A stretch of 64,000 bases of DNA from a virus: positions 12,490 through 76,489 of IMG/VR virus record IMGVR_UViG_3300036790_000811, one strand, 5' to 3'. Made by a program: the position numbers and the translations under genes. The notes below the pieces were generated by a model. It saw only the letters and a program-made list of their open reading frames with translations. It did no database searches and had not been told where the DNA came from. Positions 55,949 through 63,109 of the stretch are shown piece after piece. Position 1 is the first letter of the stretch, and each line of letters starts with the position of its first letter.

Positions 55949-56862
55949 ATGAAGGTGCCCCCGGAGCGGCGGGTCGGGCTACTCCGGGGGCGGGGCGTTC
56001 CGGGATCTGGGGAAGGCGGAACGCCCGGCTTGCAAGTTTAACCGCTACCAGCGGCCGGGGCGCGAGTACTTCTCGCCGCAGAGCATGAGACCGCTCTTGC
56101 GCCAGTGCGGAGAGTTGGAGGGCTGCTCACCGCATAGCGCGAGACCGCTCTTAGGCGGAGACGGCATGTCACATTCCGGTCCTACCCCGGCAATCCGAGA
56201 TAGACCCGGCATGATCAGCGAACAGGCGAGGGTGTGGATGCCAGCCCGACTGTCACAGTGCGGGCGGACCGGATTGGCCCTATAGCCCTTGATCATCAAG
56301 TTCAGGATTGTCACTATCATGCTTATCTCCTATCAGTTTGCTGAGGGCACTGTGCCCCTTGGTCTCGGACAGCTCCCAGAGGGCTGCCCGGGTGCCGATC
56401 TCGGCTTCCCGTAGCCAGAAGTCAGTCGTCATTGTCGCCGCTCATGTCATCCTTCCCTGTCATCTCGGTGCCGGAAGCTGCGCGTCTGCTGTCGAACCAG
56501 TCGCACAGATGCCCTTGGATGACGTTCGGGAGTCCCACCCAGTGTCCCGCTTCGTGGATCCACTGGAGCGGGTGGTGCTTCAGGTCAGTCATCATGCGTC
56601 CTTCGTTGATGGCCAGAGCAGGTCAAGCGCCTTCGATGTTCATGTCTCCATGGACCCGCTGACAGGCTCCGGCCCGTGGACCCCGGGGAGTCGAACCTCG
56701 CCGGATCCCTAGACGGGATCCGGGACCATCAGGCCCTCCCGCATCCACGGTGTCGGCTCGTGAAGCAGGGATGCTTCGGCTACCTCGTCCCAGGTTTCCC
56801 CGGGCCAGGGGCACACGCTGTCGTAATCCATCGTATCGCTTCCCATCGGTTTCTTACTGCCG

Positions 56863-60274: not shown

Positions 60275-60327
60275 TGGTCGCGAGAGGGTTTGAACCTCTG
60301 CCCCGGAGGGCCTCGCCAAGCGCGACC
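60275..60327 (-). ncRNA. Anticodon-less tRNA-like element
   Basis: GGTCGCG/CGCGACC-A acceptor; AGAGG-TTCAAAC-CCTCT T arm; small GCCC-TCCG-GGGC hairpin. Confidence 0.65.
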
Positions 60328-61381: not shown

Positions 61382-61856
61382 CTATTCCCTCCGGCAGGAT
61401 CTGTCGTGGTGTCCGCTGACGCAGCAGGGGCACCTCAGGAAATCTTCGTCCTCGTCCATCGGGCACGGGCACATCCGTTTGCAGGCCCGGCACCGGCACC
61501 GCAGGTCAATCGTCGCGTTTCCCGGCCTCGTGCCCGCCGGTCCCGCCGGGTGCGTCGAGTAGCCGCTCACAGCACATCAGCCAGTCGCACCAGACGAGCT
61601 CCCCGCAGGCGGCGATCGTGGTCCCGAGGAACATCACCGCCCAGGGTGACCCGCTTCCCCAGGTATAGCCGAGGGCCCAGCCGCTGACCAGGATCAGCGC
61701 GAGACTGAACAGCCATAGCCGCCTCACTTCTTCGGGGGCCGGCCGTCGGCTGGTCCCTTGTTCTGCCCCGAGCCGCCCTTGTCGCCCCGGCCGGGTCCAC
61801 CGGAGCCTCCTGAACCCTGTCCGGGCTTCGGGGTTCCGGGATGATCTTTGCCCACC
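61382..61856 (-). CDS. Three small genes: Gly/Pro/Lys-rich (~61856-61724), membrane (61727-61506), Cys-rich (61570-61382)
   Basis: AAGGAG RBS; GTGA overlap. Confidence 0.55.
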
Positions 61857-61910
61857 GTTCTCCTTGAGTTCCGGGCGGGGGTACCACCCTGAGCTTCCAC
61901 GTTCCTCGGG

Positions 61911-62050
61911 TGCCCGTGCTCTACCGTCTGAGCTACCTTGCTAATGCAACACCTTCGACCGTAAGCGCTGAATCTCTTACGCCGTCGGCTTTCACCGGGA
62001 CTCTCACCCGGCTCAGGGAGGGATTTGAACCCCCGGCCTCGGGCCTGACG
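61911..62050 (-). tRNA. Degenerate circularly permuted tRNA-Asp(GTC)-like module with a ~70-nt structured linker
   Basis: GTC-AG-GCCCG-AGGCC-GGGGG-TTCAAAT-CCCTC comes first; TA-GCTC-AGACGGTA-GAGC-A-CGGGC comes later; weak acceptor stem. Confidence 0.55.
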
Positions 62051-62113
62051 CTGAACGCTTCCGTCATCAGGACAGATCCCCGCCCGGACGATGAGAGAGG
62101 TACCCCCAGGGGA

Positions 62114-62191
62114 AGACGGTGCTCTGTCGCTGAGCTACCGGAACCTGTGATGCTCCGGGGAGGACTCAAACCTCCGACACCCGTCTTGTGA
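62114..62191 (-). tRNA. Circularly permuted tRNA-Val(CAC): 3' half 62191-62151, linker, 5' half 62144-62114
   Basis: Rejoining gives GTTCCGG TA GCTC AGCGACA GAGC A CCGTC TT CAC AA GACGG GTGTC GGAGG TTTGAGT CCTCC CCGGAGC A, with all four stems paired. Confidence 0.8.
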
Positions 62192-62240
62192 TCCCAAGGG
62201 AGATCTCTCTCAAAGGACGGGAGAGAGGGTACCGCACCAG

Positions 62241-62319
62241 GTCCGGCGTCCTAGCCACGTTAGACGATCCCCCGATGAGCCGGGGGCGAGAGCATCGAAC
62301 TCCCATTACCGGACTGAGA
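62241..62319 (-). tRNA. Circularly permuted tRNA-Glu(CTC): 3' half 62319-62280, linker, 5' half 62274-62241
   Basis: Rejoining gives CGGGGGA TC GTCT AACGTGGCTA GGAC G CCGGA CT CTC AG TCCGG TAAT GGGAG TTCGATG CTCTC GCCCCCG G; Glu-type D arm and short variable loop. Confidence 0.78.
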
Positions 62320-62384
62320 TCCGCTACAGATCCCCTCTCCCTTCAGCCCTTGCGGGACCTGCATGCCGCAGGGGTACCGGTGAA

Positions 62385-62472
62385 CTCCGACAGTGGGATT
62401 CGAACCCACGGGATCCCTCGGGACCCGGCGGCTTTCAAGGGCCGCTGCATTCAGCCACTCTGCCACGTCGCA
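62385..62472 (-). tRNA. tRNA-Ser(TGA) embedded in an extended acceptor stem
   Basis: GCGGC-CT TGA AA-GCCGC; long variable arm; GTGGG-TTCGAAT-CCCAC; G73; G2:G71 mismatch. Confidence 0.8.
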
Positions 62473-62613
62473 GTTCTCTCACTAGATTCCTGCCAGCGCC
62501 GCATGCGAGGGCGCTTAACCGGGAGGGTACCGCGTCGGCGTTATGTCCCTTGGGGCTAACCCTAGGACTGGCGCTATCGGCAGATCCTTCCGGTAACGGG
62601 GTACCGCCACTAA

Positions 62614-62684
62614 CCTCCGGCAGGGGACTCGAACTCCTACTTCCTGGCCTCTACCAGGCGTGCTGCCAATTACACTAGCCAGTT
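62614..62684 (-). tRNA. tRNA-Gln-like body with a defective 6-nt anticodon loop
   Basis: GTGT-AATTGGCA-GCAC D arm; CCTGG-TAGAGG-CCAGG; TTCGAGT T loop; partial acceptor stem. Confidence 0.55.
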
Positions 62685-62698
62685 CGGCAGATCCCGTC

Positions 62699-62764
62699 GC
62701 GGGCTGGCGGAGGCTTGAACTCCGCTGCATGCCGGCCGGGAGTGTCCCGGCTCGTTCAGCCCAC
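62699..62764 (-). ncRNA. tRNA-like element at the head of the array
   Basis: GGGCTG/CAGCCC stem; GCGGAG-TTCAAGC-CTCCGC T-like arm; GCCGGGA-CAC-TCCCGGC hairpin. Confidence 0.5.
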
Positions 62765-62875
62765 CGAATCAAGGATAATTTGAATTGTCAAGAAAACGCC
62801 CGTCAAGAGGCTTCCGGGGGTCTCATCCGTCCCCGTCTTTGTCAACCCTATCAAGCATCCCCGGGGGACGCAAGG

Positions 62876-63109
62876 TCAATCTGATCGTCCTTGCGCCAGG
62901 AGCCGCTGGACTTCTGTCCAGCTGTACCGTCTATGCCCACCTAGTGTCCGTATTGAGGCGATTTTTCCCTCTTTGGCCCACCGGGTAACGGTTTTCGGAT
63001 CACAGGCAAATATTGTACTCACCTGTGCCGGAGTGAGAAGTTTGTCTGCCCCGGAAGCGAGCTGGGCGATGAAGTCGTCCGGCTCGTCCTTCGCTACGAT
63101 GATCTTCAT
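62876..63109 (-). CDS. bldC: BldC-family MerR-like DNA-binding protein
   Basis: LLTPAQVSTIFACDPKTVTRWAKEGKIASIRTLGGHRRY closely matches the Streptomyces BldC core (LLTPAEVATMFRVDPKTVTRWAKAGKLTSIRTLGGHRRY, from memory). Confidence 0.88.
   Translation of the reverse strand: MKIIVAKDEPDDFIAQLASGADKLLTPAQVSTIFACDPKTVTRWAKEGKIASIRTLGGHRRYSWTEVQRLLAQGRSD

What the first reader, a model, noticed from the sequence alone, without database searches (positions are those of the whole stretch)
61880..62694. Six-module RNA array: one conserved GGAUCU/GGUACC stem presents different tRNA-shaped cargoes
Seen: six GGATCT-type and six GGTACC motifs alternate strictly over ~815 nt. The flanks pair around them (e.g. 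ACGGG-AT-CTGCCG…TGGCGG-TA-CCCCGT), giving a stem with a fixed AU/UA internal loop. The cargoes differ: Gln-like and Ser tRNAs are attached through the acceptor end; Glu, Val and Asp-like tRNAs are attached through the anticodon end (permuted); one module holds only a hairpin. The motif differs from the Ro60-binding GNCGA consensus as I recall it. Inference: the stem is a recognition or processing signal for one protein (nuclease/ligase or RNP scaffold). The array may be an undescribed system that produces or displays tRNAs or mimics, for example to resist or titrate host anticodon nucleases.
Basis: partly seen in the sequence, partly recalled or inferred. Interest (0 to 1): 0.9.

Follow-up and report, generated by a model that had tools for sequence, protein, structure and literature searches.

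The report
Phage array of stem-mounted tRNA mimics
A soil phage carries a row of six non-coding RNA modules, each a sealed or back-to-front imitation of a tRNA (one is just a hairpin) mounted on the same short conserved stem; the design resembles bacterial Y RNAs, but the stem lacks their known protein-docking motif and its partner is unknown.

Summary
On the minus strand (window 62698-61870), six modules are each closed by a two-part stem with an invariant core: 5'-GG|AU|CU paired with 5'-GG|UA(C)|CC. Beyond the core the stem sequences differ between modules but pair only with their own partner (unique best of 720 partner permutations).

- **Cargoes:** two tRNA-shaped bodies are joined through the acceptor end and have 6- and 8-nt "anticodon" loops. 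Two are clean circularly permuted tRNAs with a closed acceptor hairpin. One has T and D arms around a ~95-nt insert. One is a hairpin. None can decode.
- **Family:** one module matches Rfam YrlA below threshold. Both known Y-RNA topologies occur. The Ro60-binding CGAA motif is missing, and the 76-kb record has no Ro60 gene, although two of five terminase relatives have one.
- **Relatives:** ~90%-identical arrays from three other soil-metagenome studies differ by whole modules. There is an extra 143-nt unit in a linker, and one cargo is replaced between kept stem cores.

Best reading (about 0.5): a Y-RNA-like array of tRNA mimics whose stem is a protein-docking or processing site. Expression, RNA ends and the partner are untested.

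This scan has noted "handle plus exchangeable tRNA-like cargo" RNAs before on other phage DNA, but not with this handle.

The parts
62786..62791 (-). TTGACA word in an AT-rich stretch about 20 nt upstream of the first RNA element. It is a possible -35 box, but no convincing -10 box was found.
   Evidence: Read directly from the sequence. The promoter scan did not call it. Homology with the relatives' contigs ends exactly at 62786.
62699..62764 (-). M0: a tRNA-like minihelix without a D arm (acceptor-like stem, hairpin, T arm) and without the handle. It is replaced by 51 other letters in relatives.
   Evidence: Fold z-score -3.83. Only a weak mascRNA-like match, 13.6 bits, E 2.9. Joint 62702->62786.
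62595..62698 (-). M1: handle plus a tRNA-shaped body joined through the acceptor end, with a 6-nt 'anticodon' loop.
   Evidence: Rfam tRNA 29.6 bits, E 1.2e-4, model positions 3-68. ARAGORN calls a tRNA with a 2-letter anticodon. Handle has 6 outer and 6 inner pairs.
62518..62594 (-). M2: handle enclosing only a ~50-nt hairpin. Its interior is about 15 nt shorter in relatives.
   Evidence: Fold. Deletions at 62538-62580 lie inside the cargo and none lie in the core hexamers.
62368..62493 (-). M3: a variant handle (AAU/UACC loop) on a class-II Ser-like tRNA body. The acceptor helix is extended to 11 bp with a G.G mismatch, and the anticodon-like loop has 8 nt.
   Evidence: Rfam tRNA 36.4 bits. 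ARAGORN calls an odd anticodon. Relatives carry one more base in that loop, behind 62435.
62220..62340 (-). M4: handle plus a circularly permuted tRNA body in the order T arm, closed 6-bp acceptor hairpin, D arm. The anticodon stem runs into the handle. A second, unused GGAUCU lies at 62322.
   Evidence: ARAGORN finds a cloverleaf after in-silico de-permutation. Fold z-score -2.23. No Rfam match. The cargo 62236-62326 is replaced by diverged sequence of equal length in relatives, while both core hexamers are kept.
62092..62212 (-). M5: handle (AGAUCU / GGUACCU, a compensated G-C to A-U change) plus a clean permuted tRNA body with a 7-bp closed acceptor hairpin.
   Evidence: Rfam YrlA 39.9 bits, E 4.9e-7 over 1.2 kb, below the gathering score of 69. 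Cloverleaf after de-permutation. Fold z-score -4.18, with MFE equal to centroid.
61870..62088 (-). M6: the longest handle (11 outer and 9 inner pairs), carrying a T arm and a D arm separated by three hairpins (~95 nt) where the acceptor stem would be.
   Evidence: Fold z-score -2.76. Handle found. No significant Rfam match.
61724..61865 (-). An AAGGAG ribosome-binding site and a 43-codon Gly/Pro/Lys-rich ORF (GTG at 61855, stop at 61726-61724), starting directly after M6.
   Evidence: With the relatives' substitutions applied, this frame stays open while the other two frames acquire stops.
61506..61727 (-). A 73-aa protein that looks like a two-helix membrane protein. Its GTG start overlaps the previous stop (GTGA). 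It is inherited together with the array in relatives.
   Evidence: Homologs of 82-84% identity come from other assemblies. The block shared with the relatives' contigs spans 61503-62883. No Pfam or PHROG match.

Best explanation
The region is one transcription unit on the minus strand. It encodes a string of six Y-RNA-like modules, possibly starting near the TTGACA at 62791 and running into two small ORFs.

**What each module is.** Each module is a 'handle' carrying a cargo.
- The handle has an outer helix of 5-11 bp, an invariant core and an inner helix. The core is G-C, G-C, a small AU/UAC loop, C-G and a conserved U.G wobble. The loop can also be read as an A.C mismatch, a U-A pair and a bulged U.
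- In five modules the cargo is a tRNA-shaped body that cannot decode or be charged as made. It is sealed either at the acceptor end (M1, M3; the Yrn1 topology) or at both ends, with the handle replacing the anticodon loop (M4, M5, M6; the YrlA topology).

**How it probably works (inferred).**
- The handle is the constant part that one protein recognises, either as a docking site or as a cleavage site that frees the modules.
- The variable tRNA-like bodies, with their T-loop/D-loop elbows, engage tRNA-recognising host factors as tethers or decoys.

**Shown versus inferred.**
- Shown: the helices, the invariant core, the tRNA-like bodies, the non-coding nature of the region, and the modular gain, loss and replacement of cargoes in relatives.
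- Inferred: transcription, the identity of the partner, and what the cargoes bind.
For: - **Handle is real.** It covaries module by module. Cognate partners give 50 extra pairs against a mean of 19.2, the unique maximum of 720 permutations. In M5, a G-to-A change in the core is matched by C-to-U.
- **Core is constrained.** The core is invariant in 6 of 6 modules while the flanks differ.
- **Strand.** U.G and G.U pairs make sense only for RNA read from the minus strand.
- **tRNA-likeness.**
  - M1 scores 29.6 bits on the tRNA model.
  - M3 scores 36.4 bits on the tRNA model.
  - M5 matches YrlA at E 4.9e-7, and its handle core aligns to the position of YrlA's internal loop.
  - M4 and M5 give cloverleaves after de-permutation.
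- **Non-decoding.**
  - Anticodon-like loops have 6 and 8 nt.
  - The 8-nt loop has 9 nt in relatives.
- **Both topologies are known.** Chen et al. 2014 describe both for Y RNAs, including a 6-nt 'anticodon' loop in Yrn1 (PMC4201824).
- **Modularity in relatives from other soil samples.**
  - A 143-nt insertion sits exactly in the M5-M6 linker.
  - The M4 cargo is replaced between kept cores.
  - Indels that are not multiples of three are confined to the M2 cargo.
- **Not coding.** No ORF over the array has a coding base composition.
- **Ro60 in the clade.** Two of five terminase relatives carry a TROVE/Ro60 gene.
Against: - No CGAA/GNCGAA word in the handles. The only one, in M1, loses a base in relatives.
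- No TROVE, DUF2828 or any RNA-related Pfam family in the 76-kb record.
- The YrlA score is well below Rfam's threshold (39.9 against 69), and M4 and M6 have no Rfam match.
- No array with this handle was found in IMG/VR, JGI metagenomes or GenBank phages.
- Between-genome covariation could therefore not be counted.
- There is no evidence on transcription or on RNA ends.
Confidence: 0.5

Rival explanations
1. The handles are mainly endonuclease processing stalks. Like the stems flanking rRNAs, or the internal-loop hairpins that RNase III cuts in phage T7 transcripts, they would direct excision of each module from a polycistronic precursor. No stable protein would be docked. This partly overlaps with the best explanation.
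For: - The modules lie head to tail with linkers of 0-8 nt, or with short hairpin spacers, apparently in one unit.
- Every module's two ends are base-paired.
- The two helices are split by a small conserved asymmetric loop. From my own knowledge, that is the general design of T7 RNase III sites.
- A ribosome-binding site and ORF follow M6 directly, so the mRNA part would need to be separated from the array.
Against: - Several handles are short for RNase III (M1 has 6+6 bp, and M3 fewer).
- RNase III has little sequence specificity, so an invariant GG-AU-CU / GG-UAC-CC core is more than it would need.
- No cleavage data exist.
Confidence: 0.22
2. The handles are only structural insulators that let each cargo fold on its own. 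Their shared core would then be a remnant of recent tandem duplication rather than a recognised motif.
For: - M1 and M2 share an 11-nt word, GGAUCUGCCGA.
- M4 and M5 have near-identical GAGAG/CUCUC outer helices.
- Both point to duplication.
Against: - The flanks of the other modules have diverged completely while the core has not.
- In relatives, the cargo between the cores was replaced while the cores stayed.
- A plain insulator helix would not need an unpaired AU/UAC loop and a fixed U.G pair.
Confidence: 0.13
3. The conserved hexamers act at the DNA level. RGATCY and GGTACC are DNA palindromes and could serve as recombination or enzyme sites that bound exchangeable cassettes, with the RNA pairing secondary.
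For: - Both cores are palindromic restriction-type words.
- GGTACC is over-represented across the whole window, 33 copies against 12.8 +/- 3.7 expected.
- Cassette-like differences in relatives fall at the motif borders.
Against: - The flanks covary as RNA helices with module-specific partners.
- They use G.U pairs, which are mismatches in DNA hairpins of the other strand.
- The two motifs always occur as a 5'/3' pair around a folded cargo.
- M3 keeps the structure with an inserted base that destroys the palindrome.
Confidence: 0.05
4. It is an ordinary or decaying phage tRNA gene cluster, misread as something special.
For: - The array lies in the phage's tRNA region, next to genuine tRNA-Thr and tRNA-Met genes.
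- Chen et al. warn that tandem tRNAs can mimic YrlA matches.
Against: - ARAGORN and Rfam find no normal tRNA in the array. M1 and M3 have 6- and 8-nt loops and sealed acceptor ends.
- M4 and M5 are true permutations, with a closed acceptor hairpin and no partner halves on either side.
- The block is kept at about 90% identity in other samples.
Confidence: 0.05

Closest known systems
YrlA, the tRNA-like bacterial and mycobacteriophage Y RNA (Rfam RF02553; Chen et al. 2014, PMC4201824)
   Same: - The terminal stem is formed by the 5' and 3' ends.
- An internal loop interrupts the stalk.
- The order is T arm, closed acceptor-like hairpin, D arm, with no anticodon loop.
- M5 aligns end to end with the model.
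- Several such RNAs can lie side by side.
   Different: - The handle lacks GNCGAA(N0-1)G.
- The score is below the gathering threshold.
- No rsr/Ro60 gene lies within 4 kb or anywhere in the record.
- There are six modules in a row with mixed topologies.
Deinococcus radiodurans Yrn1 (Y RNA)
   Same: The tRNA-like part is joined through the acceptor side and keeps an 'anticodon' arm with a 6-nt loop (PMC4201824). M1 shows the same topology and loop size.
   Different: Yrn1 lacks a full D arm, carries the Ro60 motif and lies beside rsr.
Thermus phage phiLo Yrl1/Yrl2 with phage Ro60 (PMC12135203)
   Same: These are phage-encoded stem-bulge-stem RNAs in tandem.
   Different: - They were defined by a CGAA motif in the bulge and by a neighbouring Ro60 gene. 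Neither is present here.
- They were not reported to have tRNA-like bodies in the passages I read.
Phage T7 RNase III processing signals and the processing stems of rRNA operons (from my own knowledge, not checked here)
   Same: They are helices interrupted by a small conserved internal loop, repeated along one transcript, that bracket or separate functional units.
   Different: They separate mRNAs or rRNAs, not tRNA mimics. No sequence likeness was tested.
Circularly permuted tRNA genes of red and green algae (from my own knowledge)
   Same: The 3' half of the tRNA precedes the 5' half in the gene.
   Different: - Those genes yield real tRNAs through a circular intermediate cut at bulge-helix-bulge motifs.
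- Here the handle is a single 2x3 internal loop, the anticodon loop is absent, and the context is a bacterial virus.

Membership tests
YrlA / bacterial Y RNA | GNCGAA(N0-1)G (CGAA) Ro60-binding motif near the 5' end, in the terminal stem or bulge | tested here: not met
   The handle 5' strands read ..GG AU CU... Only M1 has GCCGAA inside its inner helix, and relatives delete one A of it. The motif definition comes from PMC4201824 and PMC12135203.
YrlA / bacterial Y RNA | Encoded within about 4 kb of, and on the same strand as, a Ro60/Rsr (TROVE) gene | tested here: not met
   No TROVE or DUF2828 match in the 76,489-base record. The record is about 68% complete and ends 1.3 kb upstream of the array, so the gene may lie outside it. 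TROVE is present in two of five terminase relatives.
YrlA / bacterial Y RNA | tRNA-like domain with T arm, closed acceptor-like stem-loop and D arm on a terminal stem | tested here: met
   Met for M4 and M5, which give cloverleaves after de-permutation, with supporting folds. M6 fits only in part. M1 and M3 have the opposite, Yrn1-like topology.
YrlA / bacterial Y RNA | Score at or above the Rfam gathering threshold (69 bits) | tested here: not met
   The best match is M5 at 39.9 bits. M4 and M6 give nothing.
YrlA / bacterial Y RNA | Bound by Ro60/Rsr in vivo | not testable with these tools
   Needs immunoprecipitation or a gel-shift assay.
Functional tRNA genes | Seven-nt anticodon loop, and free 5' and 3' acceptor ends after processing | tested here: not met
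   The loops have 6 nt (M1) and 8 nt (M3). The acceptor helices run on into the handle. M4-M6 have no anticodon loop.
Permuted tRNA genes processed through bulge-helix-bulge motifs | Two 3-nt bulges separated by a 4-bp helix at the junction of the flanks | tested here: not met
   The handle has a single 2x3 internal loop.
RNase III processing signal | Cleavage by RNase III within the stem | not testable with these tools
   Only the general shape, two helices and a small internal loop, is seen.
Type III toxin-antitoxin RNA repeats (ToxI type) | Near-identical short tandem repeats followed by an endoribonuclease toxin gene of about 170 aa | tested here: not met
   The modules differ in sequence and in length (77-221 nt). 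The downstream ORFs are 43 and 73 aa with no family match.

The most novel reading that the evidence does not exclude
The GG-AU-CU / GG-UAC-CC handle is the docking or cutting site of a dedicated protein that is not Ro60. That protein could be a host factor or a phage protein outside the record; the co-inherited 43-aa basic Gly-rich peptide is a long shot. The phage would use exchangeable cassettes on this handle to display a changing set of sealed tRNA bodies that capture host tRNA-recognising enzymes or tRNA-directed defence proteins. That would make it a new phage ribonucleoprotein system built on the Y-RNA principle.
Probability: 0.15. Interest if true: 0.85.

Novelty: new variant of a known kind. 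Interest (0 to 1): 0.6.

Why it matters
- **Scope of Y RNAs.** Y RNAs are the only well-studied bacterial RNAs that pair a protein handle with a tRNA mimic. What their tRNA-like part does is still unclear.
- **What this array adds.** It puts both known topologies on one different, invariant handle. It exchanges cargoes between relatives and seems to do without a neighbouring Ro60 gene.
- **If the handle binds a protein.** The 'handle plus tRNA-mimic' design would extend beyond Ro60. It would also offer a simple system for asking what sealed tRNA bodies are for in phage infection, because one handle carries several cargoes.
- **If the handle is only a processing stalk.** It would still be an unusual way for a phage to make small structured RNAs.

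Tried and rejected
**Searches for homologous arrays**
- blastn against 50,697 GenBank phages found nothing.
- Three motif patterns gave only chance matches without paired flanks or tRNA-like content: two in IMG/VR and one in JGI metagenomes.
- Neighbouring proteins as bait found no relatives: the 159-aa and 146-aa ORFs and the ORF73 alignment in IMG/VR, and ORF73 in JGI metagenomes.
- Terminase as bait found relatives in IMG/VR. The two closest records are incomplete and hold neither tRNAs nor motif junctions.
- In GTDB genomes the terminase found only Proteobacteria MAGs at 29-32% identity, so I had no actinobacterial genome handle for wider searches.

**Contigs of the relatives**
- I also searched with a spurious ORF that lies over the array. 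That found nothing.

**Expression**
- No RNA holder was listed for this stretch.

**Partner protein**
- There is no TROVE, DUF2828 or other RNA-related family in the record.
- The ESM Atlas search on the upstream 159-aa ORF was uninformative.
- No YrlA was found next to the relatives' TROVE genes. A motif junction near the TROVE gene of G005 lies in coding-looking sequence.
- The best YrlA hit in G005 overlaps two tRNA genes found. It looks like the tandem-tRNA false positive that Chen et al. warn of.

**Readings considered and dropped**
- A synthetic construct, since GGATCT and GGTACC look like cloning scars. The block sits in a phage genome and recurs at about 90% identity in four studies.
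- Ribozyme, CRISPR repeat, tmRNA, and the large phage RNAs GOLLD and ROOL. None gave an Rfam match.
- A bulge-helix-bulge splice site. The geometry is wrong.

Full report
**Where it is.** The window is the last 64 kb of a 76,489-base IMG/VR provirus record from a soil metagenome. It has 61.6% G+C. It encodes a terminase, portal and other phage proteins, and a DUF397 protein typical of actinomycetes. The finding lies on the minus strand, 1.3 kb from the end of the record. It sits in the phage's tRNA region, which also holds genuine tRNA-Met and tRNA-Thr genes.

- Read on the minus strand, GGUACC occurs six times between 62605 and 61880.
- A GGAUCU-type word precedes each one. Four are exact, one is AGAUCU and one is GGAAUCU. 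Module 4 holds one extra internal copy.
- Six GGTACC in 815 nt compare with about 0.35 expected from the rest of the window.
- A scan of both strands of the whole window, for a 5' word and a 3' word whose flanks pair on both sides, finds strong cases only here.

**The handle.**
- Laid side by side, the six handles share an invariant core: 5'-G G | A U | C U and 5'-G G | U A (C) | C C.
- That gives two G-C pairs, a small AU/UAC loop, a C-G pair and a conserved U.G wobble.
- The loop can also be drawn as an A.C mismatch, a U-A pair and a bulged U.
- In M5 the first G is A, and the opposing C is U.
- M3 has one more base on each side of the loop.

**Covariation inside the array.**
- Outside the core, the helices have unrelated sequences in different modules, yet each pairs with its own partner.
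- Cognate partners give 50 additional pairs. The mean over all 720 re-partnerings is 19.2, and the real arrangement is the single best.
- This is covariation within one array. With the G.U pairs, it shows the constraint acts on an RNA read from the minus strand.
- Each module folded alone forms the handle. Fold z-scores run from -0.97 (M1) to -4.18 (M5).

**The cargoes.**
- **M1** fits the tRNA model over positions 3-68 (29.6 bits). It has a 6-nt anticodon-like loop, and its acceptor helix runs on into the handle.
- **M3** is a class-II, Ser-like body (36.4 bits). It has an 8-nt loop, a G.G mismatch and an 11-bp sealed acceptor helix.
- **M4 and M5** have the order T arm, closed acceptor hairpin, D arm. 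Their anticodon stems continue into the handle.
  - When cut open at the acceptor loop and closed at the other end in a script, ARAGORN draws both as cloverleaves.
  - M5 also aligns end to end with Rfam's YrlA model (39.9 bits, E 4.9e-7, below the gathering score of 69).
  - This is not the tandem-tRNA artefact that Chen et al. warn of, because the missing halves are not there.
- **M6** has a T arm and a D arm around three extra hairpins.
- **M2** is only a hairpin.
- **M0**, a D-armless minihelix without a handle, precedes the array.

**It is not coding, and it is conserved.** Contigs of four other soil-metagenome runs from three further studies were laid on the region.
- Contigs of 2.0-2.4 kb in runs X3 and X7 match 61503-62883 at about 90% identity. 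Shorter contigs in runs X2 and X6 match parts of it.
- The differences are modular.
  - 143 extra letters sit exactly in the 5-nt linker between M5 and M6.
  - The M4 cargo (62236-62326) is replaced by diverged sequence of the same length, while both core hexamers and the outer helix are kept.
  - M0 is replaced.
  - About 15 nt of small deletions, not in multiples of three, are confined to the M2 cargo.
  - One base is added to the M3 anticodon-like loop.
- No ORF over the array has a coding composition.
- The shared block also holds two small genes directly after M6.
  - One is a 43-codon Gly/Pro/Lys-rich ORF with a strong ribosome-binding site. Its frame alone stays open under the relatives' substitutions.
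  - The other is a 73-aa membrane-type protein.
Covariation between genomes is therefore untested.

**What it is like.**
- The design of a terminal stem interrupted by a small loop, carrying a tRNA-shaped body with no usable anticodon, is that of bacterial Y RNAs.
- Chen et al. (PMC4201824) describe YrlA, joined at the anticodon side with a closed acceptor. They also describe Yrn1, joined at the acceptor side with a 6-nt 'anticodon' loop. Both topologies occur in this one array.
- In the YrlA alignment, M5's handle core falls where YrlA has its internal loop.

**Why it is not a member.**
- The Ro60-binding word GNCGAA/CGAA is absent from the handles. The one GCCGAA, in M1, is not conserved.
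- The record contains no TROVE, DUF2828 or other RNA-related family.
- Two facts soften the second point. The record is about 68% complete and ends just upstream of the array. Two of five terminase relatives carry a TROVE gene, including the closest one searched (G001, 65% terminase identity). There a 151-aa ORF holds the end of the TROVE domain and a DTSGSMS word that I read as the start of the vWA domain's metal site.
- I therefore file it as working like a Y RNA, not as a YrlA.

**Mechanism.**
- I commit, at about 0.5, to this reading. The constant handle is recognised by one protein, and the variable sealed tRNA bodies are what is presented.
- Whether recognition means docking or cutting is open. 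A pure processing-stalk reading gets about 0.22.
- Duplication remnants acting only as insulators get 0.13. A DNA-level role for the palindromic hexamers gets 0.05, and an ordinary tRNA cluster gets 0.05.
Three modules have no anticodon loop, M2 is only a hairpin, and the other two have loops of variable length.
- What most cargoes share is the T-loop/D-loop elbow. This points to elbow- or acceptor-recognising factors, but that is inference only.

**Novelty.**
- No array with this handle was found in GenBank phages, IMG/VR or JGI metagenomes.
- My literature searches found no description of such an array.
- Earlier notes of this scan describe other 'handle plus exchangeable tRNA-like interior' RNA families in phage tRNA regions, mostly beside Ro60-like genes. 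None has this handle.
- It is a new variant of a known kind. The evidence rests on one phage lineage and on no expression data.

Noticed in passing
window 60276-60327 (-): A second D-armless tRNA-like minihelix (7-bp acceptor stem, small hairpin, T arm, discriminator A), like M0. It matches the mascRNA model at 26.4 bits, E 0.035, but its fold z-score is only -0.31. It overlaps a doubtful 74-aa ORF.
   Followed up: partly
window 56675-56748 (-): ARAGORN's 'tRNA-Arg(TCT)' is not found by the Rfam tRNA model at E<=1. It folds with an 8-bp anticodon-type stem (GGAUCC palindromes) and a 5-nt loop, so it may be another tRNA mimic rather than a tRNA.
   Followed up: partly
whole window: GGTACC is over-represented throughout the phage genome, 33 copies against 12.8 +/- 3.7 in shuffles, with 27 of them outside the array. 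The cause is unknown; it could be codon usage or a DNA motif.
   Followed up: no
window 62727-62732, 62503-62508, 62361-62366 (-): The palindrome GCAUGC occurs three times, in M0 and in the two hairpin-containing spacers (M2-M3 and M3-M4). GAUC is also about three times more frequent in the array than my rough estimate from base composition. Palindromic words could allow RNA-RNA contacts. Not tested.
   Followed up: no
L229:1004-1459 (G001, closest terminase relative searched): A 151-aa ORF carries only the C-terminal part of a TROVE domain and a DTSGSMS word that looks like the start of a vWA metal site. The Ro60 gene of this relative looks split or frameshifted in the assembly.
   Followed up: partly
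window 61724-61855 (-): An unannotated 43-aa Gly/Pro/Lys-rich basic ORF with a strong ribosome-binding site. Its stop overlaps the start of the 73-aa membrane protein (GTGA), and it is conserved with the array in relatives.
   Followed up: partly
G005:C1:18600-35600: A distant terminase relative (38% identity, 115 kb) carries 37 tRNA genes in one island, plus a 673-aa TROVE protein 55 kb away.
   Followed up: no
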